From the IMG/VR virus record IMGVR_UViG_2872158770_000006: DNA of 39,775 nt; one strand, given 5' to 3'. The notes beneath the pieces are model-generated. The model was given only the letters and a program-made list of their open reading frames with translations. It was not told the origin of the DNA and made no database searches. This document shows, piece after piece, positions 4,612 through 37,345 of the stretch. The position numbers and the translations under genes are program-made. This DNA comes from a virus (taxonomy: Duplodnaviria; Heunggongvirae; Uroviricota; Caudoviricetes). Every line of letters starts with the position of its first letter. Positions within the stretch are counted from its first letter, which is position 1.

Positions 4612-5430
4612 ATGTGTCAGGTATTTGGTGTATCCAGGAGCGGTTATTACAACTGGGTACAGCATGAACCCTCAGACAGAAAACAAAGTGATGAGCGGCT
4701 AAAACTGGAGATTAAGGTGGCACATATCCGCACTCGCGAAACATATGGAACCCGGCGGCTCCAGACGGAGCTGGCAGAGAATGGCATCATCGTTGGTCGT
4801 GACCGACTGGCACGTCTTCGTAAGGAGCTAAGGCTACGCTGTAAGCAGAAACGCAAGTTCAGAGCGACTACGAACTCGAACCACAATCTGCCAGTTGCGC
4901 CAAATCTGCTGAACCAGACGTTCGCTCCTACAGCACCAAATCAGGTCTGGGTGGCGGACCTGACGTATGTTGCCACACAGGAGGGATGGTTGTACCTCGC
5001 TGGCATCAAAGATGTTTATACGTGCGAAATTGTCGGCTACGCCATGGGAGAGCGCATGACAAAAGAGCTGACAGGTAAAGCCCTGTTTATGGCGCTCAGG
5101 AGCCAGCGCCCACCTGCCGGGCTAATCCACCACTCTGATCGAGGTTCACAGTACTGCGCATACGATTACCGGGTCATACAGGAGCAGTCTGGTCTGAAAA
5201 CATCAATGTCGCGTAAAGGTAACTGTTACGACAACGCTCCGATGGAAAGCTTCTGGGGAACGCTGAAAAATGAGAGCCTGAGCCACTATCGTTTTAATAA
5301 CCGGGATGAAGCCATCTCAGTAATACGGGAATACATTGAGATTTTCTACAATCGTCAGCGTCGTCACTCTCGTCTGGGGAATATCTCCCCGGCAGCCTTC
5401 AGGGAAAAATATCATCAGATGGCTGCTTAA
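4612..5430 (+). CDS. IS3-family transposase OrfB (DDE catalytic domain), -1 frame relative to OrfA
   Basis: 272-aa with DDE/rve integrase core motifs (…HSDRGSQY…, …YDNAPMESFWGTLK…); frame extends upstream of the first Met to the frameshift site. Confidence 0.85.
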   Translation: MCQVFGVSRSGYYNWVQHEPSDRKQSDERLKLEIKVAHIRTRETYGTRRLQTELAENGIIVGRDRLARLRKELRLRCKQKRKFRATTNSNHNLPVAPNLLNQTFAPTAPNQVWVADLTYVATQEGWLYLAGIKDVYTCEIVGYAMGERMTKELTGKALFMALRSQRPPAGLIHHSDRGSQYCAYDYRVIQEQSGLKTSMSRKGNCYDNAPMESFWGTLKNESLSHYRFNNRDEAISVIREYIEIFYNRQRRHSRLGNISPAAFREKYHQMAA

Positions 5431-5557
5431 AAAAAGAACAAATGGTAGTGTCCGCTATTGCCAGTACACCTCACATTATACGAAGCACTTCGCACGGTTG
5501 ATCGTCTGCTTCGCGGGCAAAGTTTTATTAAACAGGCTGATTTATAACAGGTGCTTT

Positions 5558-5845
5558 ATGACCAAAGACAATGCACAAGGTGTATTTATCCGTTTTATTG
5601 ATTTTCGCGGTGAACTGTTATTACGTGCATCCGCTATTGACGGAGTGACTCCGGCGGGTAAAAACGGAGCCGACGAAGCCACTTACGTTTATCTGAACGG
5701 CACGCGACTGCTTGTGGAACTTCCGTACCAGACCGTACGAGAAATCATCAGCGAAGATGAAAAGGCACGCCAGGTTAATGGCGATGAACCCTATATCGAA
5801 ATTATTTGTATGGATTCAGAAGCTGAAATACAGAAAGCAGATTAA
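5558..5845 (+). CDS. Hypothetical early protein
   Basis: 95-aa ORF from ATG at 5558 in the early operon; no recognisable motif. Confidence 0.45.
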   Translation: MTKDNAQGVFIRFIDFRGELLLRASAIDGVTPAGKNGADEATYVYLNGTRLLVELPYQTVREIISEDEKARQVNGDEPYIEIICMDSEAEIQKAD

Positions 5846-5856
5846 AGGGCGTTGTG

Positions 5857-6099
5857 ATGGGCAAAGAATATAAAACTCTCATTAACAAAGCACTTGAGCG
5901 TTTTTATTTTCGCTTAAGTGCATCAGGCGCTCATGCTGAACGTGCGGCCCGTGACTCATTGACCAGAGCAATCCGAAGTCTGTATGACGTGGCTTTTTAC
6001 GCTGATGATCTGGATGCACTTAACGAACTTTCCGAGCTGATCTGTGCCGCAGAATGCGGGGAACATATTGAACCGTATAAGCTGGGAAATATCGCATGA
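5857..6099 (+). CDS. Hypothetical early protein
   Basis: 80-aa ORF, tightly packed in the early operon. Confidence 0.45.
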   Translation: MGKEYKTLINKALERFYFRLSASGAHAERAARDSLTRAIRSLYDVAFYADDLDALNELSELICAAECGEHIEPYKLGNIA

Positions 6100-6209
6100 G
6101 TATATTTATTTCATGGCTTGTTCTGATTATTTCGGTGGTCTGCGCCATTGGGATTATGCGAATTATTAATTCAGTAAAAAAGATTGAACGCTTTTTCACT
6201 GAAGAATAA
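6096..6209 (+). CDS. Small single-TM peptide (37 aa), putative
   Basis: ATG overlaps the upstream stop (ATGA); MSIFISWLVLIISVVCAIGIMRIINSVKKIERFFTEE is one hydrophobic helix plus a charged tail. Confidence 0.3.
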   Translation: MSIFISWLVLIISVVCAIGIMRIINSVKKIERFFTEE

Positions 6210-6295
6210 CCGCGCAAATAAGACCCCAGGTTAAATAAGAAAATGTGAAAACAATCCGCATTCGCGGAGGTATTCGCACACGCCAAGGAGGCGTA

Positions 6296-6499
6296 ATGGC
6301 AATTAAGCATTTTCCTGTCGTTCGTTTCACCTCCAGAGGACGTGAATACGAAGTTGACGAACGCCTGATTACCACAATCGACAAACACCGTTCAGAAAAG
6401 GATGCACATCATATCTATCTCACTGACGGCACTTACTTCTGCGCCACCAACGTGGTGCAGGTGAATCTTATCAGACAGGTACAGGAGTCACGCAGATGA
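6296..6499 (+). CDS. Hypothetical early protein
   Basis: 67 aa from ATG with AAGGAGG RBS; stop overlaps the next start. Confidence 0.45.
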   Translation: MAIKHFPVVRFTSRGREYEVDERLITTIDKHRSEKDAHHIYLTDGTYFCATNVVQVNLIRQVQESRR

Positions 6500-6741
6500 C
6501 CATTCTGGACTACATCGCTGCCAATCCGGGTTGTAGCAGTGGAGAAATCGCCGCAGCACTGAATACACCAACCACAACCATTAATGCGGAGCTACGCCGT
6601 CTCTGGCGCAGCGGTTTAGTCACAAGAAAAGAGCGCAAAACAGGCGGTCGCTTTTCTTATCAGGTAAACCTGATGCCGTTTGGGTGTAGCAACCCACTAA
6701 CCCAGATGTTCAACCAGCTACTGAGGGAAATCAGAGCATGA
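6496..6741 (+). CDS. Small winged-helix DNA-binding protein (putative)
   Basis: 81 aa; GCSSGEIAAALNTPTTTINAELRRLWRSGLV resembles a wHTH recognition helix and wing. Confidence 0.45.
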   Translation: MTILDYIAANPGCSSGEIAAALNTPTTTINAELRRLWRSGLVTRKERKTGGRFSYQVNLMPFGCSNPLTQMFNQLLREIRA

Positions 6742-6882
6742 GCACCTCCAACTGCCGGAAACCACGTCGGGCTTCAGCAGCTCATCCGGCAGCAAAACAA
6801 ACTCCATTAATTCCTGTTCCGGGCCTTTCCTGCACCTTGCGGCGGGAGGCCTTCGCACATCTGTAACAAGAGGATTGCCGCA

Positions 6883-7254: not shown

Positions 7255-10077
7255 ATGACGGCAGAGTACATCAGGGACTGGCAACAACCGCGCCACGCAG
7301 TGGGGCGTGAAGGAACGGGGATCCCCGCTCCTGAATCCGCGCTTTCCTCCTGGCTGGATGCCCACCGGGCAGAGAACGAGCGCCGCCAGGAAATGGCTGA
7401 TGCGGCGTTCTCCGCCACGCCACTGGGCAACCTGATTAATAAAAGCCTGGACGCACAGGAAAAACAGGACAAAACCATCACACTGGCAGGAGACGCCAGA
7501 AAACAGGCACGCGGCGCGGTGGATGAAGCCATGGCCTCGCTGCGCCTGCTGCCGTCCTATCTGCGCGATCCGCTTATTCGCCACCTCTCCTTCCTGCGCA
7601 AAAAACAGGAAGCCGATCGCCGGAAAGGCAAAAAGAGCTGGCAGGCGGAACGCTATGCACGCGGAACCCTGCGCAAAATATTCGAACGTCTGGATCGCAC
7701 TGACGGACACTGGCTGACACCGGGTTATCGCTCCCTTGCCGGACGTGAACGCCTGGACGATTTGCTTTACCTGCCGCAACTCAACAAACACCAGATACAG
7801 ACGCTGGCCACCATGACGGCGGCGATGTTCAGCAGCACCTTCGAAAAACTCTGCGATGGTTTTGGCGCGACTGATGGCGAGCTGACCATGGATGTAACGC
7901 TGAAGGCGTATCAGATGCTGGCCCGCATGGCGTTACACTTACACGCCATGCCTCCGCATTATGACGCACTGACAACAGACAAAGACCGGAGGCACGAACC
8001 GGACACAGAACTGCTGCCGGGCGCAATCCTTCGCCTGACCTGTGCGGAATGGTGGAAACGCAAACTGTGGCTGTTACGTTGCGAGTGGAGAGAAGAACAA
8101 CTTCGCGCCGCCTGTCTGGTTTCCAGAAAAACATCGCCCTATCTGAGCCAGGACGCGTTAAGCGAGTTTCGCGCACAGCGCGAGAAAACACGCGATTTCC
8201 TGAAAAGTTTCATGCTGGAAAATGAAGACGGGTTCACGATTGATCTCGAGACGGTGTATTACGCGGGAGTAAGTAACCCGGTTCACCGTAAGGCAGAAAT
8301 GATGGCCACCATGAAGGGGCTGGAACTTCTGGCCGAAGCCCGTGGCGACAAAGCGGTGTTTCTGACTGTCACCTGCCCGTCAAAATACCACGCCACAACG
8401 GAGAACGGTCATCCGAATCCCAAATGGAACGGGGCCACAATGCGCGACTCCAGCGATTACCTGGTTAACACGTTTTTTGCGACGGTCCGCAAAAAACTGA
8501 ACCGCGACGGCCTGCGCTGGTATGGCATCCGCACGGCGGAGCCTCACCATGACGGCACCGTGCACTGGCATATGATGGTCTTTGCTCATCCGGAAGAAAT
8601 CGACACCATTGTGTCCCACACCCGCGATATTGCCATTCAGGAAGATCGTCACGAGCTGGGCGATGACATAACTCCGCGCTTTAAGGCGGAGTATGTAGAC
8701 GGCTCAAAAGGCACGCCAACCAGCTACATCGCCACCTACATCGGGAAAAACCTGGACAGCCGCGCCGTGGATGGCATCGACCCGAAAACGGGCAAGCCAC
8801 GCGTTGACCACGAAACCGGAAAATCAATGGCCGAGAGCGTGGAACGCGCCATCGGCTGGGCGCGCCTTCACCGGGTCCGCCAGTTCCAGTTCTTTGGCAT
8901 CCCCTCCCGCCAGGTATGGCGTGAACTGCGCCGCCTTGCCAGCCAGATGGCACGCAACCCGGAAGGCCCGCAACGGCTGAAGGATGACGCAATGGATGCG
9001 GTTCTTGCCGCCGCTGATGCCGGATGTTTTGCCACCTACATAGAGAAACAGGGCGGCGTACTTGTTCCACGCAAAGACTACCTGATTCGCACCGCCTACG
9101 ACCTCGCCGATGAGCTGAACGATTACGGCGAACAGAGCGTACAGATTTACGGGATCTGGTCACCACTCATCGGGGAATCCTCCCGTGTGTGCACGCATCC
9201 GGATAACTGGAAGCTGGTAAGACGCAAACCGGAAGCGGAAGACAGCGCCCGCGAAAATGGTTTTGACCTTCAGGGCGGCCCTGCCGCCCCTTGGACTCGT
9301 GGCAATAACTGTCCCCGTGTACAGGAAACGGACAACAACGGGACAGAACAGCCGGAAGAACGGCCAGCACCGTGGCCGCAGCTCCCTGACGGCGTTGATG
9401 TGGATGAATGGATGCGCTCACTGAAACGGCACGAACGCCGGGCGCTGATGCGTTCGCTTCGTGACAAACAGGCAAAAAACAGCAGTGATGAAATGCAGAG
9501 CTGGACACAGAGCCGCAAACAGCAGCGGCCTTTGCCTGATAACCACGAATTACTCGCTAAAGAATGGCGGGAGTCTGCTGAATCTCTCGGCCTGCATATC
9601 GGTGAACAACAGATGCAGCACCTGTTACGGGGCGGCAGTCTGTACGTTGACGACAGCATCATTGCACCGCAGGGATTTGAAATTGTACGCAAACCGGATA
9701 CCCGCCCGGACAGCCGAATCACGCAGCTCTGGCAGCGCCTGAGCCGTAATCATGGCGTAAGCAGCACGGAGATCCGCCATAACCCGGTCGCCAGCTATCT
9801 GACACAGCTGGGGGCATCAGACCCTGAAGCCGCCGCACGCCTGGCATCCACACTTCAGCAGGACCAGAACACCATGAAAACACCCGTTACCGTGCTTTCT
9901 GACATGCTGCGCGCCATCCGCGACGCAGAGCACGCACAGAGAATCAGTGAAACCACTGAACGCGCCCGCCGCAAAGCAGACCTGCTGCGGGGTGGCCTGA
10001 CCAGTGGAAACAAAAAACAGACAGAAACGGGACTCACGAATCCCGTAAATGAGCAAAAAACGCGCAGCGATATATGA
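7255..10077 (+). CDS. A: Rolling-circle replication initiator, P2 gpA family, with a long C-terminal extension
   Basis: HUH motif TVHWHMMVF and paired active-site tyrosines SYIATYIGKN; 940 aa is longer than the roughly 760 aa remembered for P2 A. Confidence 0.85.
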   Translation: MTAEYIRDWQQPRHAVGREGTGIPAPESALSSWLDAHRAENERRQEMADAAFSATPLGNLINKSLDAQEKQDKTITLAGDARKQARGAVDEAMASLRLLPSYLRDPLIRHLSFLRKKQEADRRKGKKSWQAERYARGTLRKIFERLDRTDGHWLTPGYRSLAGRERLDDLLYLPQLNKHQIQTLATMTAAMFSSTFEKLCDGFGATDGELTMDVTLKAYQMLARMALHLHAMPPHYDALTTDKDRRHEPDTELLPGAILRLTCAEWWKRKLWLLRCEWREEQLRAACLVSRKTSPYLSQDALSEFRAQREKTRDFLKSFMLENEDGFTIDLETVYYAGVSNPVHRKAEMMATMKGLELLAEARGDKAVFLTVTCPSKYHATTENGHPNPKWNGATMRDSSDYLVNTFFATVRKKLNRDGLRWYGIRTAEPHHDGTVHWHMMVFAHPEEIDTIVSHTRDIAIQEDRHELGDDITPRFKAEYVDGSKGTPTSYIATYIGKNLDSRAVDGIDPKTGKPRVDHETGKSMAESVERAIGWARLHRVRQFQFFGIPSRQVWRELRRLASQMARNPEGPQRLKDDAMDAVLAAADAGCFATYIEKQGGVLVPRKDYLIRTAYDLADELNDYGEQSVQIYGIWSPLIGESSRVCTHPDNWKLVRRKPEAEDSARENGFDLQGGPAAPWTRGNNCPRVQETDNNGTEQPEERPAPWPQLPDGVDVDEWMRSLKRHERRALMRSLRDKQAKNSSDEMQSWTQSRKQQRPLPDNHELLAKEWRESAESLGLHIGEQQMQHLLRGGSLYVDDSIIAPQGFEIVRKPDTRPDSRITQLWQRLSRNHGVSSTEIRHNPVASYLTQLGASDPEAAARLASTLQQDQNTMKTPVTVLSDMLRAIRDAEHAQRISETTERARRKADLLRGGLTSGNKKQTETGLTNPVNEQKTRSDI

Positions 10078-10153: not shown

Positions 10154-11113
10154 ATGAAAATTTGTATCGACGACGGCTCCACCAACATCAAGCTGGCATG
10201 GACTGAGAACGGCGAACGCCGCAACGCCATCAGCCCGAACAGCTTCAAGTCGGAATGGTCTGCGCCGTTCGGTGGCATGCAGCCCGCGAACTACATGCTT
10301 GATGGCGTGCGCTATGGTTTTGATCCGGTCAGCGATCGCTTTGTCCAGACAACCGACACGCAATACCAGTACAGCGATGTAAATGTCATTGCCATTCATC
10401 ACGCGCTGGTCAAATCAGGCATCACGCCACAGGAGGTGGATGTGGTTGTCACCCTGCCACTGAGCGAGTATTTCGACACAAACGCACAGCCGGACATGGC
10501 CAACATCAACCGCAAAAAAGCGAACGTTATGCGCCCGGTGGAGTACCAGAACGGCGAAGCATTCACTATCCGTAACGTGCGGGTTATGCCTGAATCCATT
10601 CCGGCTGGCTTTAAGGCACTGGCTGACATGAGTCCGTTTGAATCCCTGCTGATTGTGGATTTGGGCGGAACCACGCTGGATGTGGCAAAGGTTCAGGGGC
10701 AACTGGCAGGTATCAGCCAGGTGTTTTGCGATCCACACGTAGGCGTTTCTCTGATGGCCGATGCCGTACTGTCGGTGATGGCCACTAACGGTATGCGCAC
10801 CAGTCACCACATCGCCAATACCATTATCGAACATCGCCATGATGAAGCCTGGCTGCGCCAGCACATCCACAATGACGCGCATTACGCCAGCCTGATGGCG
10901 GTTATTCGTGAAAAGGAAGAAACACTGAAACAACGCGTGATCCGCGCGCTGGCGGGTTTTTCGGGTTACGGGCGGGTGATGGTTGTCGGTGGAGGGGCGG
11001 AGATTGTGGCACCCGCTATCCGCGAAGCCTGCGGAGTTAATGCGACTTTCATCGCGGACGGGGTGCCACAGTTTGCTCTGGTTAATGGGCTGTACGCAAT
11101 GGACAAGGAGTAA
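10154..11113 (+). CDS. parM: ParM/StbA-type actin-like ATPase
   Basis: 319-aa; N-terminal MKICIDDGSTNIKLAW, internal YSDVNVIAIHHAL, VMPESIPAGF, LIVDLGGTTLDV and C-terminal VMVVGGGAEI...ALVNGLYAM align along the whole length with plasmid R1 ParM as remembered. Confidence 0.8.
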   Translation: MKICIDDGSTNIKLAWTENGERRNAISPNSFKSEWSAPFGGMQPANYMLDGVRYGFDPVSDRFVQTTDTQYQYSDVNVIAIHHALVKSGITPQEVDVVVTLPLSEYFDTNAQPDMANINRKKANVMRPVEYQNGEAFTIRNVRVMPESIPAGFKALADMSPFESLLIVDLGGTTLDVAKVQGQLAGISQVFCDPHVGVSLMADAVLSVMATNGMRTSHHIANTIIEHRHDEAWLRQHIHNDAHYASLMAVIREKEETLKQRVIRALAGFSGYGRVMVVGGGAEIVAPAIREACGVNATFIADGVPQFALVNGLYAMDKE

Positions 11114-11117
11114 ACCA

Positions 11118-11429
11118 ATGACGACACCAACCAGACGGATAAGTTTCTATCTGAAGCCTGCGGCCGTCAAGAACGAAAGCGAAGCATGCGCCTGGCTGGG
11201 CAGCCTTACACCAGAAGCCCGCAAAAGCGGCCAACGCGTGGCTTTTCTGGCCGGGCTGGCACTTCTGAAAATGAATCCAGCAGAGGCTTACCGACTGGCT
11301 GCATGGGCTGACGATGAGGCGTTATCGGTGACACAAACCAGGACAGAACGCCCCGTGCCACAGCCAGTACCAACCGCACAGATAACCAGTCAGATAGCAG
11401 GGAATATCCGGGCATTATTTCCTGAATGA
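11118..11429 (+). CDS. ParR-like DNA-binding adaptor (putative)
   Basis: 103-aa ORF starting 5 nt after the parM stop with AGGAG RBS; N-terminal RRISFYLKP...AFLAGLAL is consistent with a ParR-like ribbon-helix-helix. Confidence 0.55.
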   Translation: MTTPTRRISFYLKPAAVKNESEACAWLGSLTPEARKSGQRVAFLAGLALLKMNPAEAYRLAAWADDEALSVTQTRTERPVPQPVPTAQITSQIAGNIRALFPE

Positions 11430-11489
11430 CGAATTTGACGGCTTTTAATTTTATCGGGGTGCACTGTCGCCCCGCACGAGGAAAACACG

Positions 11490-12014
11490 ATGAAAAAATA
11501 CGAATACATGCTAATGAAAGAAGCACTGCGGGCTGGTCTGGCTCCCTGTCCTGTATCCGTAGAAGCTGTTGTTGGGAACACGATTTTCCGAACGCTGCGA
11601 AATCGCGTATCCGTGAAGATGGTTCACCAACCACCCAAATCTACCAGCATGATCTATCTGCCGCTGCCCGAGGCTATCAAACTTATGCGTTCGCTGAAAT
11701 TTGCGATTTGGATGCAGACACAAATCAACAAAGCGGTGCAAAACACCTTCGTTAAGAGACTAATACCGGAGCTTGCTGCCAGATGTGCAAAATGTACCAG
11801 ACCCGCACTTCAATTTGATCTGTCATTGATTCAACAAGCTACGGAGGCAGAACTGTACCGCCTGTCACCTATCCGTGATGCTCACACGGAAGCATCAGAA
11901 ATGTTCCGGCTCATGTTTCAATTTAATTTTGCCGTTCGACGCACACGCGTTCAGGTCAATCGCATGATGCAGGAGCAGGAAGAGTTAACACAGTACAAAG
12001 GGGGCAGCCAGTGA
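11490..12014 (+). CDS. Hypothetical protein, 174 aa, accessory island
   Basis: ORF with GAGG RBS; stop overlaps the next start. Confidence 0.5.
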   Translation: MKKYEYMLMKEALRAGLAPCPVSVEAVVGNTIFRTLRNRVSVKMVHQPPKSTSMIYLPLPEAIKLMRSLKFAIWMQTQINKAVQNTFVKRLIPELAARCAKCTRPALQFDLSLIQQATEAELYRLSPIRDAHTEASEMFRLMFQFNFAVRRTRVQVNRMMQEQEELTQYKGGSQ

Positions 12015-12250
12015 GTAATTCAGCACGACTACAGCTTGGTTTTTCACCGCTATCAAAAACCATCGTATTGGCAAAAATGCGTGACTTAGGAGACGGAACA
12101 AAACGCCGCGTAGGAAATGATCGCGGTCGCGATGTAACCAACGAGGCCGCTCAACTCGTTTGGCATCTAGTCATGGCAGAAGGCGGTGAAATTAATTGGG
12201 AGCTGGATGATGGTTCTCGTATGATTTTGAGGGCCGAGAAGAGTAAATAG
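12011..12250 (+). CDS. Hypothetical protein, 79 aa, GTG start overlapping upstream stop
   Basis: Coupled by GTGA overlap; acidic C-terminus. Confidence 0.4.
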   Translation: MSNSARLQLGFSPLSKTIVLAKMRDLGDGTKRRVGNDRGRDVTNEAAQLVWHLVMAEGGEINWELDDGSRMILRAEKSK

Positions 12251-12264
12251 CTCAAGGGGGATTA

Positions 12265-12450
12265 ATGCTAAATGATGATGAAGAAGAGCTGCTTATGCAG
12301 GAATGGTCGCTCGGTGATTATGATAATGGTGAAAATGGGTGCCCGCATTGTGGCCGTTATCGTTTATGTATCTGCCAGAATGGAAAACACAGATGTGAAA
12401 AGTGCAATTGGTCTCCGGAACTTAATGACTACGTGCCGATCGAGTGGTAG
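12265..12450 (+). CDS. Small zinc-finger protein (61 aa, 8 Cys)
   Basis: CPHCG...C.C...C..C spacing; acidic N-terminus; AAGGGGGA RBS. Confidence 0.5.
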   Translation: MLNDDEEELLMQEWSLGDYDNGENGCPHCGRYRLCICQNGKHRCEKCNWSPELNDYVPIEW

Positions 12451-12940
12451 AGGTAAGTCACACTAGGTGTTTTTTAGTTGATTTTATAAATGCACAATAG
12501 TGCACAAATTTGCACAATTTTTTTGAACGACTTTTTGCCCTTCCGGCCCGCGTGGCGGCTGGATCCGTCAAGGATCCGTGCATGCACAAAAAAACGCGTT
12601 TTTTCTGCGCGCAGGTGACGGGGAACAGCCCGCGTTTCAGGGGGTAAATAGCATTCCCTGAACGATGTCGCAGAGATACAACAGAATGGCTGTATTTCTC
12701 ACGCTGAGCGTGAAAAAGACGTGAGGGCTTTTGATTTGATGGGGTGAAAGGTAAGGCCGTCAAAATCGCACTGAGACGGCGAGAATATGCAGTCAACGAG
12801 GTGGGATTGCGTAAGAGTCTGACTGTCGATGATGGCAATCAGCAGGAAAGCGTCGTGAAATTATCTGACTGATACAGGAGCTGGAGAGTCGGGGCATAAA
12901 TTTTTTATGCCCCGGCGAAGCAGCAGACAAGCGAAGCGCG
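12451..12940. other. Non-coding region upstream of the portal gene; expected location of cos and packaging signals
   Basis: 490 bp without a convincing ORF; three TGCACAA repeats (about 12490-12520), a GGATCCGT direct repeat, and a 10-bp-stem palindrome CGGGGCATAAA/TTTATGCCCCG (12888-12913). Confidence 0.35.
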
Positions 12941-13987
12941 TCAGGATGTGGGCTGGGTGTCTAACAGTGCGTAAGGGTTAAAGCGGATCACCTCTTCGCC
13001 AAGCCAGTCATTGATGTGCTTCATGGCCTCCATGACGGGCATCAGCTCGTTAATTGCGTAAACCCGCGCGGCCTTCTCCACATCACCAAACGCACTTTTT
13101 TCGCCCGGCATCGCCCCCATCAGTTGCGGCGGAACGCGGTGCGCAGCCAGCACATCATCACGGGATGCCGCCTTAACATTCATGAACTCATCCTTTGCGG
13201 TGATCTGCTGGAACGGCAAAATTTGCACCCCCTCTTTGCCCCCGTTGGGCGCATGAATGAGCACGTTTTTAAACGCACCACCACCACGTGCCCCCTGTAG
13301 CGTTTCTTTCAGGGAGTCCATGCTTTCGCGGTTTACCTGCGCTGCACCGATGTAGATGATGCACCCGGCGTGGGATCCGTTGTCGTAGTACAGTTTTCTG
13401 AACATGTCCGCCGAATGAGAAAGGCTGGCCGAGAGTAATGCGCCAAGATATTCCGGCATGCCGTAGATTTCCTGGTTAATATCCGGATTCATCAGGTGGC
13501 ACACTTTGCCAGGACGAAACTGAAACGCATCCTTGCCATCCTGCACATACCACCATGATTCAAGATCGCTTCCGCGTCGCATGTATTTCGCCAGGGCGTG
13601 CCGTAATTTAAGCGGTTCGCCGAGCATATTGCTCCGAAGCTCAAGGAATGCGTTACCGAACACAAACCAGTCCAGCGCCAGCGCCGAGAAATCCTGCCGG
13701 GAAAGCAGCGGGTGCGGAATATAGCAGCCGAGCAATACATTGCGCTTAAAGTAAAGCGCAGACTGATGCCAGGACGTTTGCCGGGCAGCTCTTGCCAGAC
13801 CGTACCAGTCCACCGGGGTTTCATACCACCGCCCGTTATCAGCACAGTACATATTGTCCAGCAGGTCATGCCCGGTCAGGCGGTAAGGACCATCAAATGT
13901 GAATGCACTGAGCGACGATTCTTTCCTGAGCGCATCAGCGAGATCAATGCGTGAACTCATGCGCACTTTTTTATTTTTTCTGCTCAT
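12941..13987 (-). CDS. Q: Portal protein, P2 gpQ family
   Basis: 348 aa, position and size match P2 Q; start overlaps the terminase stop (ATGA). Confidence 0.85.
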   Translation of the reverse strand: MSRKNKKVRMSSRIDLADALRKESSLSAFTFDGPYRLTGHDLLDNMYCADNGRWYETPVDWYGLARAARQTSWHQSALYFKRNVLLGCYIPHPLLSRQDFSALALDWFVFGNAFLELRSNMLGEPLKLRHALAKYMRRGSDLESWWYVQDGKDAFQFRPGKVCHLMNPDINQEIYGMPEYLGALLSASLSHSADMFRKLYYDNGSHAGCIIYIGAAQVNRESMDSLKETLQGARGGGAFKNVLIHAPNGGKEGVQILPFQQITAKDEFMNVKAASRDDVLAAHRVPPQLMGAMPGEKSAFGDVEKAARVYAINELMPVMEAMKHINDWLGEEVIRFNPYALLDTQPTS

Positions 13988-34609: not shown

Positions 34610-34766
34610 AGCTTCAACCCCTTGTATCCGTTAAATGATTCGGCAACAATCATCACCCACCACGCGCGTAATCTCACCCCTGCGCCATTCTCCCGCCACG
34701 GCGACAACAAAAAGCAGTAACCCCCTCCGCACGCACATGCGACCATGCCACACAGGGAGGGAGCAG

Positions 34767-35876
34767 ATGACCGACACCACCATGCAATTGCTCAGTCAGG
34801 GCACAGACCCCGTGAAAATGCCGGATTTTGATATTCTCGCGGAGGGTAAAACGCTGTCAGGCGTGGCAGAGCGCCTGATGAGCCTGTCACTGACCGACAA
34901 CCGGGGATTTGAGGCGGACCAGCTCACCATCACGCTGGATGATGCGGATGGTCAGTTGCAGCTACCGCCACGGGGCGCGCGCCTGACGGTTCTCATTGGC
35001 TGGAAGGGAGAACCGCTGACAGAAAAAGGCACTTACATTGTTGATGAAATCGCTCACGAAGGACCGCCGGACAGGCTGACTGTTTCAGCCAGAAGCGCAG
35101 ATTTTCGGGCTGAATTTAACGTTAAACGTGAGGTGTCCTGGCATGATGTGACCGTTGAGCGTGTGGTATCCGCCATCGCTCATCGGTATGGTCTGAAACC
35201 GCAAATCAGCGAAATGCTGATGGATATCGAAATCGACCACGCCGACCAGACCGAAGAAAGCGACATGTCCTTCCTTACGCGCATGGCGGAAATGCTGGGC
35301 GCAATCACCACGGTAAAAAGCGGTAATCTGTTATTCATCATGCCCGGTGGTGGCGTGAACGCACAGGGCCAGCCGTTGCCCTCGTTCGCCATCACACGCA
35401 GCAGCGGCGATCGCCATCAGTTCCGCATTGCTGACCGCGAAGCGTATACGGGGGTACGCGCTTACTGGCTTGATCTTAATTACGGGAAAAAGAAAAAAGT
35501 CAGCGTGAAACGCCGCAAACCGTCAAAACCAAAAAAGGAGAAAAGCAGCAGCCGGGAAGGCGACTATATGGAAGGTGCGGAAGGCAACGTGTTTGTGTTA
35601 CGCAAAACTTATCAGAACGAGCAGGCAGCAAGACGTGCAGCGGCGGCAAAGTGGCAGCAGCTACAACGCGGAGCCGCATCATTCTCCATCACACTGGCGC
35701 ATGGACGTGCAGAACTCTACCCCGAAATGCATGGCACGGTAACAGGATTTAAAAGCGAGATTGATAATCAGGACTGGATTATTGCAAAAGCCGAGCACAC
35801 CATTGATAACAGCGGCTTTACCACGCAGCTTGAGCTTGAGGCAAAAATCCCGGAATGGATAGCAGAAACAGAGTGA
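34767..35876 (+). CDS. D: Late control/tail protein D (Phage_GPD family)
   Basis: ATG at 34767 with GGGAGG RBS; LSLTDNRGFEADQLTITLDDADGQLQLPPRGARLTVLIGWKG matches the conserved GPD N-terminal region. Confidence 0.8.
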   Translation: MTDTTMQLLSQGTDPVKMPDFDILAEGKTLSGVAERLMSLSLTDNRGFEADQLTITLDDADGQLQLPPRGARLTVLIGWKGEPLTEKGTYIVDEIAHEGPPDRLTVSARSADFRAEFNVKREVSWHDVTVERVVSAIAHRYGLKPQISEMLMDIEIDHADQTEESDMSFLTRMAEMLGAITTVKSGNLLFIMPGGGVNAQGQPLPSFAITRSSGDRHQFRIADREAYTGVRAYWLDLNYGKKKKVSVKRRKPSKPKKEKSSSREGDYMEGAEGNVFVLRKTYQNEQAARRAAAAKWQQLQRGAASFSITLAHGRAELYPEMHGTVTGFKSEIDNQDWIIAKAEHTIDNSGFTTQLELEAKIPEWIAETE

Positions 35877-36116
35877 GCAACTTAAATGTATTAACTCAGA
35901 ACGGATCAACACACTCACAACATAGAGTCAATATAGCTGCTCGCTTTGTTCCAGCAAGGATGCCTATTTCTAAGGAAAAACAGAGCAGAAACATATGGTG
36001 TTTTCCTACCTGACATCAGGGGTGGTAGACTGGCCCCCTGAATCTCCAGACAACCAGTATCACTTAAATAAGTGATAGTCTTAATACTAGTTTTTAGACT
36101 AGTCATTGGAGTACAG

Positions 36117-36482
36117 ATGATTGATGTCTTAGGGCCGGAGAAACGCAGACGGCGTACCACACAGGAAAAGATCGCAATTGTTCAGCAGAGCTTTGAACCG
36201 GGGATGACGGTCTCCCTCGTTGCCCGGCAACATGGTGTAGCAGCCAGCCAGTTATTTCTCTGGCGTAAGCAATACCAGGAAGGAAGTCTTACTGCTGTGG
36301 CCGCCGGAGAACAGGTTGTTCCTGCCTCTGAACTTGCTGCCGCCATGAAGCAGATTAAAGAACTCCAGCGCCTGCTCGGCAAGAAAACGATGGAAAATGA
36401 ACTCCTCAAAGAAGCCGTTGAATATGGACGGGCAAAAAAGTGGATAGCGCACGCGCCCTTATTGCCCGGGGATGGGGAGTAA
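36117..36482 (+). CDS. insC: IS2 OrfA (InsC)
   Basis: [41 protein letters not shown]... matches the remembered IS2 InsC. Confidence 0.9.
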
Positions 36483-37345
36483 GCTTAGTCAGCCGTTGTC
36501 TCCGGGTGTCGCGTGCGCAGTTGCACGTCATTCTCAGACGAACCGATGACTGGATGGATGGCCGCCGCAGTCGTCACACTGATGATACGGATGTGCTTCT
36601 CCGTATACACCATGTTATCGGAGAGCTGCCCACGTATGGTTATCGTCGGGTATGGGCGTTGCTTCGCAGACAGGCAGAACTTGATGGTATGCCTGCGATC
36701 AATGCCAAACGTGTTTACCGGATCATGCGCCAGAATGCGCTGTTGCTTGAGCGAAAACCTGCTGTACCGCCATCGAAACGGGCACATACAGGCAGAGTGG
36801 CCGTGAAAGAAAGCAATCAGCGATGGTGCTCTGACGGGTTCGAGTTCTGCTGTGATAACGGAGAGAGACTGCGTGTCACGTTCGCGCTGGACTGCTGTGA
36901 TCGTGAGGCACTGCACTGGGCGGTGACTACCGGCGGCTTCAACAGTGAAACAGTACAGGACGTCATGCTGGGAGCGGTGGAACGCCGCTTCGGCAACGAT
37001 CTTCCGTCGTCTCCAGTGGAGTGGCTGACGGATAATGGTTCATGCTACCGGGCTAATGAAACACGCCAGTTCGCCCGGATGTTGGGACTTGAACCGAAGA
37101 ACACGGCGGTGCGGAGTCCGGAGAGTAACGGAATAGCAGAGAGCTTCGTGAAAACGATAAAGCGTGACTACATCAGTATCATGCCCAAACCAGACGGGTT
37201 AACGGCAGCAAAGAACCTTGCAGAGGCGTTCGAGCATTATAACGAATGGCATCCGCATAGTGCGCTGGGTTATCGCTCGCCACGGGAATATCTGCGGCAG
37301 CGGGCTTGTAATGGGTTAAGTGATAACAGATGTCTGGAAATATAG
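36440..37345 (+). CDS. insD: IS2 transposase OrfB (InsD), DDE domain
   Basis: 301-aa ORF matching the remembered IS2 InsD; overlaps insC in the -1 frame. Confidence 0.9.

What the first reader, a model, noticed from the sequence alone, without database searches (positions are those of the whole stretch)
11490..12450. Three translationally coupled small ORFs ending in an eight-cysteine zinc-finger protein
The 174-aa, 79-aa and 61-aa ORFs are chained by overlapping or near-overlapping stops and starts directly downstream of the ParR-like gene, and none matches a P2 core gene I can name. The last has a CPHCG…C.C…C..C arrangement with a highly acidic N-terminus, resembling small zinc-ribbon regulators or toxin-neutralising partners. 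They may form a unit separate from ParMR.
Basis: inference. Interest (0 to 1): 0.6.

Follow-up and report, generated by a model that had tools for sequence, protein, structure and literature searches.

The report
Mosaic cargo genes in P2 hotspot
Three small, real but uncharacterised phage genes, one of them a zinc-ribbon protein, fill the well-known variable cargo slot next to the DNA-packaging site of a P2-family prophage; recombination stitched them together from separate sources, so they are not a dedicated three-gene unit and the finding is largely ordinary.

Summary
The three ORFs exist as described: 11490-12014 (174 aa), 12011-12250 (79 aa, GTG start, 4-nt GTGA overlap) and 12265-12450 (61 aa). 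All three evolve under purifying selection. The last protein has six cysteines plus two histidines, not eight cysteines. It is a CxxC-14-CxxC zinc ribbon with an acidic N-terminal helix.

The ORFs exactly fill the variable slot (11430-12490) between ParR and the conserved cos flank of a P88-like (Xuanwuvirus) prophage. This is the published gpA-gpQ diversity and defence hotspot of P2-like phages, where P2 carries old and tin. Among 76 related loci the slot has 34 different contents, including AbiL, IetAS, PDC-M04A, RmrA-like, Doc and YafO.

Each of the three genes mostly occurs without the other two. ORF1 usually sits next to an Ead/Ea22-like gene. ORF2 (DUF7446) occurs in lambdoid early-left regions and on E. 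coli plasmids. ORF3 occurs in many P2-like and other proteobacterial phages. The ORF1/ORF2 overlap is a conserved 19-nt linker that joins many unrelated gene pairs.

The triad is therefore a recombinant mosaic, not a toxin-antitoxin or regulatory unit. No profile, fold or defence-database match gives a function. The most likely reading is that these are independent accessory genes carried at the 3' end of the early operon. Interest is low to moderate.

The parts
11430..12490 (.). Variable cargo slot of the P88-like prophage, equivalent to the P2 gpA-gpQ / old-tin hotspot. The three ORFs fill it completely.
   Evidence: Megablast to P88 relatives covers the query up to window ~11427 and again from 12491. 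76 related loci give 34 slot architectures of 986-4166 nt. GC is 44.6-48.0% here against 55-58% in gpA/ParMR.
11490..12014 (+). ORF1, 174 aa, basic (pI 10.0), from a lineage-restricted family with no known domain.
   Evidence: No Pfam, PHROG, NCBIfam, PADLOC or PDB hit. Only 8 clusters in 5.8 G proteins and 3 representatives in 1.84 G. dN/dS 0.23-0.38. Always found in the gpA/ParR-to-portal slot. AF2 pLDDT 50.
11997..12015 (+). 19-nt gene-boundary linker AAAGGGGGCAGCCAGTGAG. It encodes the ..KGGSQ* tail of ORF1, the SD and the GTG start of ORF2, and it is the recombination joint of the mosaic.
   Evidence: The same motif joins ORF1|Ea22, hyp75|DUF7446, DUF2737|DUF7446 and Ea22|Ea22. There are at least 120 stretches in IMG/VR; 126 linkers join at least 7 upstream families to at least 16 downstream families. 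It occurs once in the window against 0.02 expected.
12011..12250 (+). ORF2, 79 aa, DUF7446 family.
   Evidence: PF24233 E 9.7e-17, phrog_1578 E 2.1e-32. 372 clusters, and every source-named hit is Enterobacterales. dN/dS 0.08-0.12. Also present in a lambdoid early-left region and on plasmids.
12265..12450 (+). ORF3, 61 aa, acidic zinc-ribbon protein (C26-x2-C29 ... C44-x2-C47, plus C35 and C37).
   Evidence: phrog_24897 E 2.6e-46. In 29 homologues C29, C35, C44 and C47 are invariant and C26 and C37 are at least 90% conserved. AF2 pLDDT 86.9. Structural and sequence matches are only to generic zinc ribbons.
12491..12524 (+). Right border of the slot: three TGCACAA repeats at an exact 10-bp period, forming a GTGCA-N6-TGCAC hairpin followed by T7. 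This is the first intergenic terminator-like site downstream of gpA.
   Evidence: Terminator-like site at 12500-12515. Conserved in Salmonella L228 and Erwinia L014. Homology with all P88 relatives resumes here.
10154..11429 (+). Left flank: parM (10154-11113) and parR (11118-11429). These are conserved and not part of the variable cargo.
   Evidence: Pfam StbA_N/ParM_N and Plasmid_stab_B. 92-100% identity across 80 IMG/VR loci.
12941..13987 (-). Right flank: P2-type portal gene (gpQ homologue), convergent with the cargo.
   Evidence: ORF. Annotated as portal in relatives. Pfam Phage_portal in homologous loci.

Best explanation
The three ORFs are the current cargo of the cos-proximal hypervariable slot, the gpA-gpQ hotspot where phage P2 carries old and tin, in a P88-like P2-family prophage.

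Shown:
- They are three real, independently mobile protein-coding genes of foreign (low-GC) origin.
- The arrangement is a simple recombinant. The left part (ParR-ORF1) comes from a ParR-ORF1-Ea22 haplotype. The right part (ORF2-ORF3-cos flank) comes from a ClpX-ZnF-hyp75-DUF7446-ORF3 haplotype.
- The two parts are joined at a conserved 19-nt linker that serves as a universal plug between many unrelated accessory genes.
- ORF3 folds as a single zinc ribbon preceded by an acidic helix.

Inferred:
- The genes are transcribed as the 3' tail of the rightward early replication/partition operon. They share its strand, no promoter-like site precedes ORF1, and the first intergenic terminator-like hairpin comes right after ORF3.
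- Translation is helped by the GTGA overlap and by each gene's own SD.
- Each protein acts on its own as an ea/exo-xis-type accessory early protein. It would bind a host or competitor macromolecule, giving host modulation or counter-defence, rather than acting as a toxin-antitoxin pair, a regulator of the P2 late genes or a three-part machine.
For: - Slot borders fall at the ParR stop and at 12491.
- 34 architectures occur among 76 loci with 92-100% identical flanks.
- The locus is the published P2 hotspot (PMC9122126 section 10; PMC13586616). An ORF1 homologue, WP_000759755, is already listed there as 'hypothetical' next to Ead_Ea22.
- Identity to E. coli PEC41 and relatives ends at window 12015-12018. 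Identity to FDAARGOS_943 (99.6%) starts at 12008.
- The linker is shared by unrelated gene pairs.
- The genes are distributed independently.
- All three are under purifying selection and show a GC drop.
- DUF7446 sits inside the early-left ea/exo-xis-type gene string of a lambdoid prophage, among DUF2737, DUF4752, Ead/Ea22, DUF551 and ASCH genes, and in similar co-directional strings in other phages.
- There is no + strand promoter-like site before ORF1, and the first intergenic + strand terminator-like site is at 12500. The same hairpin follows ORF3 in Salmonella.
- The zinc ribbon rests on conserved CxxC pairs, AF2 pLDDT 86.9 and weak matches to eL43, TFIIS and Rpb9 ribbons.
Against: - There are no expression data. 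The promoter and terminator scans are crude consensus matches. One promoter-like site lies inside ORF2 (12196-12225) and could drive ORF3 alone.
- The hotspot is enriched for anti-phage systems. Sister slots carry AbiL, IetAS, PDC-M04A and RmrA-like genes, and tested unknown cargo often proved defensive (PMC13586616). A negative PADLOC result therefore does not exclude defence.
- parMR may have its own ParR-regulated promoter, so the cargo could be expressed in the lysogen.
- No function-bearing homologue was found for any of the three proteins, so the 'acts singly on a host target' step is inference only.
- The sampling of loci was query-driven, not unbiased.
Confidence: 0.6

Rival explanations
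1. The cargo, or one of its genes, is a new prophage-encoded anti-phage or superinfection-exclusion function expressed in the lysogen, like old and tin at the same position in P2.
For: The position matches the published defence hotspot. Related slots hold AbiLi/AbiLii, IetA/IetS, PDC-M04A, RmrA-like, Doc and YafO. Moura de Sousa et al. report that machine learning predicts 15-32% of unknown P2 hotspot proteins to be antiviral, and that 6 of 8 unknown P4 loci protected. ORF3 recurs in this hotspot in several P2-like lineages.
Against: There is no PADLOC hit even at E<=10. The proteins are very small and have no enzymatic or sensor domains. They are co-directional with and abut the early operon, with no promoter-like site upstream. 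DUF7446 normally lives in lambdoid early-left operons, not in defence islands. Of the recognised defence and toxin cargos in the sister slots, AbiL, PDC-M04A and Doc lie on the opposite strand and IetAS is a much larger two-gene system.
Confidence: 0.2
2. The three genes form a co-adapted functional unit, for example a toxin with a zinc-ribbon antitoxin or neutraliser, or a small regulatory cascade.
For: The starts and stops are tightly packed (4-nt overlap, 14-nt spacer). ORF2 and ORF3 are adjacent in three slot architectures (L013, L003, L028). ORF3 is acidic and ORF1 and ORF2 are basic, which is a common toxin/antitoxin charge pattern.
Against: Each gene mostly occurs without the others. 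The ORF2-ORF3 co-occurrences are a single 99.6%-identical DNA segment, so they are not independent evidence. The overlap is a generic linker used by at least 7 x 16 family combinations. No toxin or antitoxin family matched. Genuine TA modules in sister slots (Doc, YafO) are readily recognised.
Confidence: 0.05
3. ORF3 is functionally tied to cos and DNA packaging, or to conflict over cos with P4-like satellites or rival P2-like phages. This would explain why it is nearly always the gene closest to cos and the portal gene.
For: In 18 P2-like loci from several lineages (portal identity 42-100%) ORF3 always lies in the gpA-gpQ slot, usually 34-523 nt from the portal stop. In Erwinia it hugs the same conserved cos-flank element from the other side. 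In a P22-like contig it directly precedes terS and terL.
Against: Only 3 of 34 P88-like slot types carry it although all of them package, so it is dispensable. In 29 non-P2 loci the downstream neighbours are mixed: integrase in 4, TerL in 3, portal in 1, and others. Adjacency to the conserved flank is expected if the gene is moved by homologous recombination that uses that flank. There is no nuclease or terminase-like motif.
Confidence: 0.07
4. The ORFs are functionless hitchhikers or decaying remnants, kept only because they lie between two recombination-active borders.
For: ORF1 belongs to a tiny family. One relative (L028) carries an IS insertion inside ORF1. The partner Ea22 gene is frameshifted in PEC41.
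Against: dN/dS is well below 1 for all three genes. The reading frames are intact and have good SD sequences. The ORF2 and ORF3 families are broad and conserved, with invariant motifs.
Confidence: 0.05

Closest known systems
P2 gpA-gpQ (old/tin) cos-proximal diversity and defence hotspot (Rousset et al. 2022, PMC9122126; Moura de Sousa et al. 2026, PMC13586616)
   Same: The position is the same: between the replication endonuclease gene (here followed by parMR) and the portal gene, next to cos. Flanks are conserved while contents are hypervariable (34 architectures in 76 loci). Known defence systems occur in sister loci. About a quarter of P2-like phages are reported to carry the partition system here. 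An ORF1 homologue is already catalogued there as 'hypothetical'.
   Different: This particular cargo has no recognisable defence domain and no PADLOC hit. It is co-directional with and abuts the early operon, and it is drawn from the lambdoid small-accessory-gene pool rather than from defence islands. No anti-phage activity has been shown.
Lambda exo-xis / P22 ea-region accessory early genes (Ea22, Ea8.5, orf60a/61/63; PMC7093339, PMC3824215, PMC8614690)
   Same: Both are strings of small, co-directional, start/stop-overlapping, mosaic genes at the end of an early operon. DUF7446 is resident in such a region. ORF1's usual neighbour is an Ead/Ea22-like gene. Small zinc-binding proteins occur in that region as well; Ea8.5 has a zinc-finger fold (own knowledge).
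   Different: Here the genes sit in a P2-type phage downstream of gpA-parMR, not between exo and xis. No sequence or fold similarity of ORF1 or ORF3 to Ea22, Ea8.5 or orf63 was found. Effects on the lysis-lysogeny decision are untested.
Generic zinc ribbons (TFIIS/Rpb9/RpoM C-terminal ribbons, ribosomal eL43/L37Ae, TFIIB)
   Same: ORF3 has two CxxC knuckles 14 residues apart on beta hairpins. Its best sequence and structure matches are all of this class.
Ogr/Delta/B zinc-finger late-gene activators of P2, P4 and 186
   Same: They are small (about 70 aa) Cys4 zinc-binding proteins of P2-family elements.
   Different: There is no Pfam Ogr_Delta hit at E<=1. The spacing is C-x2-C-x14-C-x2-C against C-x2-C-x22-C-x4-C (own knowledge). 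ORF3 lies in the variable slot, is present in only 3 of 34 slot types and is acidic rather than basic.

Membership tests
Cargo of the P2-like gpA-gpQ hotspot | Lies between the replication endonuclease gene gpA and the portal gene gpQ, next to cos | tested here: met
   gpA 7255-10077 (Phage_GPA 6.5e-131), then parMR, ORF1-3, and the portal gene at 12941-13987 on the minus strand. The definition is in PMC9122126.
Cargo of the P2-like gpA-gpQ hotspot | Contents vary between close relatives while the flanks are conserved | tested here: met
   34 architectures among 76 loci, slot length 986-4166 nt, flanks 92-100% identical. Borders are at about 11427 and 12491.
Cargo of the P2-like gpA-gpQ hotspot | Confers anti-phage protection | not testable with these tools
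   No PADLOC hit at E<=10. Plaque assays are needed.
Pfam DUF7446 (ORF2) | Score above the Pfam gathering threshold over the full domain | tested here: met
   61 bits against 24.1, profile positions 2-67 of 70. RefSeq annotates the 97%-identical gene as a DUF7446 family protein.
Zinc ribbon (ORF3) | Two CxxC knuckles, conserved across the family, on beta hairpins | tested here: met
   C26-x2-C29 and C44-x2-C47. C29, C44 and C47 are invariant and C26 is at least 90% conserved in 29 sequences. The AF2 model (pLDDT 86.9) has short strands around the knuckles.
Zinc ribbon (ORF3) | Membership of a curated zinc-ribbon family (e.g. Zn_ribbon_IS1595) at the curated threshold | tested here: not met
   17.1 bits against a cut-off of 25.4. 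PDB and Foldseek matches are all insignificant.
Zinc ribbon (ORF3) | Binds zinc | not testable with these tools
   Needs metal analysis of purified protein and Cys-to-Ser mutants.
Ogr/Delta late transcription activators | Pfam Ogr_Delta match and C-x2-C-x22-C-x4-C spacing | tested here: not met
   No hit at E<=1. The spacing is C-x2-C-x14-C-x2-C.
Type II toxin-antitoxin module | Partners are co-inherited as a pair across different genomic contexts | tested here: not met
   ORF1 alone in 20 loci, ORF2 alone in 12, ORF3 alone in 13, and the triad only as one haplotype. 46 of 50 ORF3 loci lack ORF1 and ORF2. ORF2 is in 171 E. coli genomes and ORF3 in 1.
Type II toxin-antitoxin module | Homology to a known toxin or antitoxin family | tested here: not met
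   No Pfam, NCBIfam or PADLOC match, whereas Doc and YafO in sister slots are detected.
Lambdoid ea/exo-xis-type accessory early genes | Small, co-directional, overlapping genes with homologues resident in a lambdoid early-left accessory region | tested here: inconclusive
   Met for ORF2, and for ORF1's usual partner Ead/Ea22. ORF1 itself is seen only in P2-like slots. ORF3 is seen in nin-like, pre-terminase or integrase-proximal positions.
Lar-type restriction alleviation proteins | Pfam Lar_restr_allev match | tested here: not met
   No hit at E<=1. There is only an insignificant BFVD structural match to a protein named 'restriction alleviation protein' (E 1.8).

The most novel reading that the evidence does not exclude
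At least one of the three genes is a new, very small effector of phage-phage or phage-host conflict. It would be either a minimal defence or exclusion protein, or an inhibitor of a host defence or of a cos/terminase-hijacking satellite. The most plausible candidate is the acidic zinc-ribbon ORF3, which recurs as the cos-proximal gene of the gpA-gpQ hotspot in several diverged P2-like lineages.
Probability: 0.2. Interest if true: 0.55.

Novelty: new member of a known kind. Interest (0 to 1): 0.3.

Why it matters
The locus is one more example of uncharacterised cargo in a hotspot that has already yielded many antiviral systems, so ORF1-3 are reasonable but not outstanding candidates for functional screens. 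The more general point is mechanistic. A 19-nt linker that ends unrelated proteins with KGGNQ* and starts the next gene at GTG lets accessory genes be swapped between lambdoid and P2-like phages at exact gene boundaries. Tight start/stop overlap in such regions therefore should not be read as evidence of a functional operon unit.

Tried and rejected
- **Family and structure searches.** Pfam, PHROG, NCBIfam and PADLOC scans of all three proteins gave only DUF or unknown-function families. Single-sequence and profile searches of PDB sequences gave nothing significant.
- **ORF1.** An exhaustive HMM search with the ORF1 profile found only its own 3 representatives. The AF2 model of ORF1 had pLDDT 50 and was not used for fold search.
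- **Ogr/Delta or Lar identity for ORF3.** Rejected: no profile hit and different Cys spacing.
- **TGCACAA repeats as the ParR centromere.** Rejected: the repeats are conserved in the Erwinia prophage, which lacks ParMR.
- **General link of ORF3 to packaging genes.** Rejected outside P2-like phages.
- **DUF7446 in virulent phages as an argument against defence.** Not usable. SopranoGao carries an integrase and Bas82 a ParB-like gene.
- **RNA elements.** The Rfam scan of 11000-13100 gave only a sub-threshold gyrA-RNA match.
- **Literature.** A search for DUF7446 returned nothing. Silas et al. do not mention these families. The supplements of PMC13586616 are not held.
Full report
**Observation.**
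The window contains a complete P2-family prophage of the P88 (Xuanwuvirus) type. The replication endonuclease gene gpA (7255-10077) is followed by parM (10154-11113) and parR (11118-11429).
- ORF1 is 11490-12014 (174 aa).
- ORF2 is 12011-12250 (79 aa). Its GTG start overlaps ORF1's stop codon as GTGA.
- ORF3 is 12265-12450 (61 aa), after a 14-nt spacer that carries an AAGGGGG Shine-Dalgarno sequence.

After about 490 nt of non-coding DNA come the convergent portal gene (12941-13987, minus strand) and the large terminase gene.

One detail is wrong. ORF3 has six cysteines (26, 29, 35, 37, 44, 47) and two histidines, not eight cysteines. Its N-terminus is indeed acidic: 9 acidic and no basic residues in the first 24, with a whole-protein pI of 4.4.

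**Are they genes?**
Yes, all three.
- Against homologues of decreasing identity, ORF1 has dN/dS 0.38, 0.27 and 0.23.
- ORF2 has dN/dS 0.08-0.12.
- ORF3 has pN 0.08-0.26 while synonymous sites are saturated.
- ORF2 is Pfam DUF7446 (61 bits against a cut-off of 24.1) and phrog_1578. It has 372 clusters, and every source-named hit is Enterobacterales.
- ORF3 is phrog_24897 (E 2.6e-46). It has 36 clusters and a strongly conserved core, W-x-LGDY-x-NG-x2-GCPxCGRxRLCxCxNGKHRCEKCNW-x-PE.
- ORF1 belongs to a very small family. There are 8 clusters at 90% identity among 5.8 billion proteins. An exhaustive HMM search of 1.84 billion proteins found only 3 representatives at 50% identity. It has no tblastn match in 50,697 phage records.

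**Where they sit.**
Megablast against P88 and its relatives covers parMR up to about window 11427 and resumes at 12491. The interval in between is unmatched. I fetched 80 IMG/VR loci through ParR and added five annotated relatives.
- 76 loci have both flanks, at 92-100% protein identity.
- The interval between the flanks has 34 different architectures, 986-4166 nt long.
- Sister slots carry recognisable defence or toxin genes: AbiLi/AbiLii, IetA/IetS, PDC-M04A (DUF3800-like), RmrA-like, Doc/Fic and YafO.
- They also carry small plus-strand genes such as a ClpX-type zinc-finger protein, SSB and Ead/Ea22-like proteins.

This is the locus that Rousset et al. defined as the P2 hotspot. [quoted passage not shown] They found 1,650 arrangements in 18,150 E. 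coli loci, and about a quarter carry a partition system (PMC9122126). Moura de Sousa et al. confirmed the hotspot in 2026 (PMC13586616). Table S5A of the 2022 paper already lists [quoted passage not shown]. WP_000759755 is the 95%-identical ORF1 homologue of E. coli PEC41. ORF1-3 have 44.6-48.0% GC against 55-58% for gpA and parMR, as expected for acquired cargo.

**Unit or mosaic?**
The exact triad occurs in Shigella sonnei GCA_900160585.1 and in three IMG/VR genomes (L013, L025-L027). One further relative (L028) has an IS element inserted in ORF1. No complete E. coli genome has the triad. Elsewhere the genes separate.
- ORF1 occurs in 9 of the 34 slot types. It is usually followed, with the same 4-nt overlap, by an Ead/Ea22-like gene.
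- ORF2 and ORF3 follow a ClpX-ZnF gene and a 75-aa gene in E. coli FDAARGOS_943, at 99.6% DNA identity.
- ORF2 alone is present in 171 of 5,426 E. coli genomes. It lies in lambdoid early-left strings (DUF2737-DUF7446-DUF4752-...-Ead/Ea22-DUF551-ASCH-xis/int) and on plasmids of about 48 and 92 kb.
- ORF3 without ORF2 occurs in Salmonella, Erwinia, Pseudomonas and Craterilacuibacter P2-like prophages, and in unrelated phages of Xanthomonadales, Methylophaga and metagenomes.
- In all fetched loci ORF1 was alone in 20, ORF2 alone in 12, ORF3 alone in 13, ORF2+3 together in 1, and the triad in 5, all of one haplotype.
- 46 of 50 IMG/VR ORF3 loci lack ORF1 and ORF2.

The sampling was query-driven. 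It is nevertheless enough to show that none of the genes needs the others.

**The joint.**
Identity to the ORF1-Ea22 haplotype ends at window 12015-12018. Identity to the ORF2-ORF3 haplotype begins at 12008. The crossover therefore lies in the about 10 nt around the GTGA overlap.

That sequence, AAAGGRGGCARNCAGTGAG (11997-12015), encodes the tail ...KGG(S/N)Q* of the upstream protein, a Shine-Dalgarno sequence and the GTG start of the downstream gene. The same motif joins ORF1|Ea22, hyp75|DUF7446, DUF2737|DUF7446 and Ea22|Ea22.

In the loci fetched from that scan, 126 linkers connect at least 7 unrelated upstream families, all ending in KGGNQ*, to at least 16 downstream families. The motif occurs once in the window against 0.02 expected.

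This matches the boundary or linker sequences postulated in the modular theory of lambdoid phage evolution (own knowledge: Susskind and Botstein 1978; Juhala 2000; Clark 2001). It may well couple translation, but it says nothing about functional partnership.

**The proteins.**
*ORF3.*
- AlphaFold2 with 29 homologues gives pLDDT 86.9: a helix at residues 4-13 followed by short beta elements around the two CxxC knuckles.
- Foldseek against PDB finds nothing at E<=0.001. The best weak matches are eL43/L37Ae and RNA-polymerase zinc-ribbon subunits.
- BFVD returns only an uncharacterised Lactococcus phage homologue (E 9e-4).
- Sequence profiles against PDB give only insignificant ribbon matches.

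ORF3 is thus a zinc ribbon with no characterised relative. C35 is invariant and C37 nearly so. H28 is variable, so a second metal site is doubtful. It is not an Ogr/Delta-type activator, because there is no Pfam hit and the Cys spacing differs, and it is not a Lar-family protein.

*ORF1.* ORF1 is basic (pI 10.0). Its model has low confidence (pLDDT 50), showing an N-terminal beta region and long C-terminal helices. It has no profile match anywhere.

*ORF2.* ORF2 has no PDB relative and no literature.

**Expression (inferred).**
The three genes are on the strand of the early replication/partition operon. The consensus scan finds no promoter-like site between gpA and ORF1. The first intergenic plus-strand terminator-like site is at 12500-12515, a GTGCA-N6-TGCAC hairpin followed by T7, 50 nt after ORF3. 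The same hairpin follows ORF3 in a Salmonella P2-like prophage.

A single promoter-like match lies inside ORF2, but 2.9 such matches are expected by chance, so it carries no weight. This fits co-transcription with gpA and parMR. The scans are crude, however, and parMR could have its own promoter.

**Position of ORF3.**
In 18 P2-like loci spanning portal identities of 42-100%, ORF3 always lies in the gpA-gpQ slot. It is usually the gene nearest cos and the portal, 34-523 nt from the portal stop. In Erwinia psidii it lies on the other side of the conserved TGCACAA/cos-flank element. Outside P2-like phages its downstream neighbours are mixed: integrase in 4, TerL in 3, portal in 1, and others, among 51 neighbours. 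I read the cos-proximal position as a consequence of transfer by homologous recombination that uses the conserved flank. A functional link to cos is kept as a low-probability rival.

**Conclusion.**
The locus is separate from ParMR. It is not a co-adapted triad, toxin-antitoxin pair or known regulator. It is a recombinant set of three independently mobile accessory genes, occupying the known hypervariable hotspot of P2-like phages. Function remains unknown.

I favour independent ea/exo-xis-like early accessory proteins, of which ORF3 is a zinc-ribbon binder (about 0.6). Prophage-encoded defence is the main rival (about 0.2). The novelty class is a new member of a known kind, and interest is about 0.3.

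Noticed in passing
window 11997-12015; also L001 6568-6586, L003 7990-8008, L004 4989-5007, L009 6493-6511, L038 5958-5976 and L108 onward (loci from the scan): A conserved 19-nt linker, AAAGGRGGCARNCAGTGAG, gives unrelated upstream proteins the same C-terminal KGGNQ* tail and provides the SD and GTG start of the next gene. It joins at least 7 upstream to at least 16 downstream gene families in lambdoid and P2-like phages.
   Followed up: yes
window 12491-12524: Three TGCACAA repeats at an exact 10-bp period (12491, 12501, 12511) are followed by T7. They form a terminator-like hairpin and mark the right border of the variable slot. They are conserved in Salmonella and Erwinia P2-like prophages that lack ParMR, so they are not the ParR centromere. 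They could be a terminator and/or a terminase-binding (cosB-like) element.
   Followed up: partly
window ~12613-12630: AGGTGACGGGGAACAGCC resembles the P2 cohesive-end sequence GGCGAGGCGGGGAAAGCAC (recalled from memory, not tested). It is probably the cos site, which would place ORF3 about 165 nt from the right end of the packaged genome.
   Followed up: no
L073, L098, L029/L058, L032/L035, L053/L055, L037 (slot between ParR and portal): Sister P88-like prophages carry AbiLi/AbiLii, IetA/IetS, PDC-M04A, an RmrA-like HTH-peptidase, a Doc/Fic toxin and a YafO toxin in the same slot (PADLOC and Pfam hits).
   Followed up: yes
L035, L038, L040, L048, L055, L060, L088 (between the cos-flank element and the portal gene): A 187-194 aa family (F8) with no Pfam or PADLOC match occupies a second sub-slot on the portal side of cos in 7 slot types. 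In Erwinia, ORF3 occupies this sub-slot.
   Followed up: partly
L028 ~5300-6800: In one relative an IS element (transposase OrfA/OrfB-like ORFs of 100 and 300 aa) is inserted into ORF1, leaving only its C-terminal 120 codons upstream of intact ORF2 and ORF3.
   Followed up: partly
window 36072-37345: An IS3-family-like element (overlapping 136-aa and 301-aa transposase ORFs) lies directly after the gpD-like gene (34635-35876), near where the late-activator gene and attachment-site end of P2-type prophages are expected.
   Followed up: no
window 11426-11755: An alternative-frame ORF starts at an ATGA overlapping the ParR stop (MTNLTAFNFIG...). In one homologue (P0003, 195 aa) this leader is fused in frame to ORF1, so in some relatives ORF1 may be translationally coupled to parR. 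In the window the frames differ, and the SD-preceded ATG at 11490 is the likely start.
   Followed up: partly
window 12882-12935: A sub-threshold Rfam match to gyrA RNA (22.2 bits against a gathering score of 45, E 0.02) lies just upstream of the portal stop. It is probably chance.
   Followed up: no
window 12272-12466: A 64-aa alternative-frame ORF overlaps ORF3 and is slightly longer, so a naive longest-ORF picker selects it instead. Conservation and family matches show that the 61-aa frame is the real gene. RefSeq leaves ORF3 unannotated in E. coli FDAARGOS_943.
   Followed up: yes
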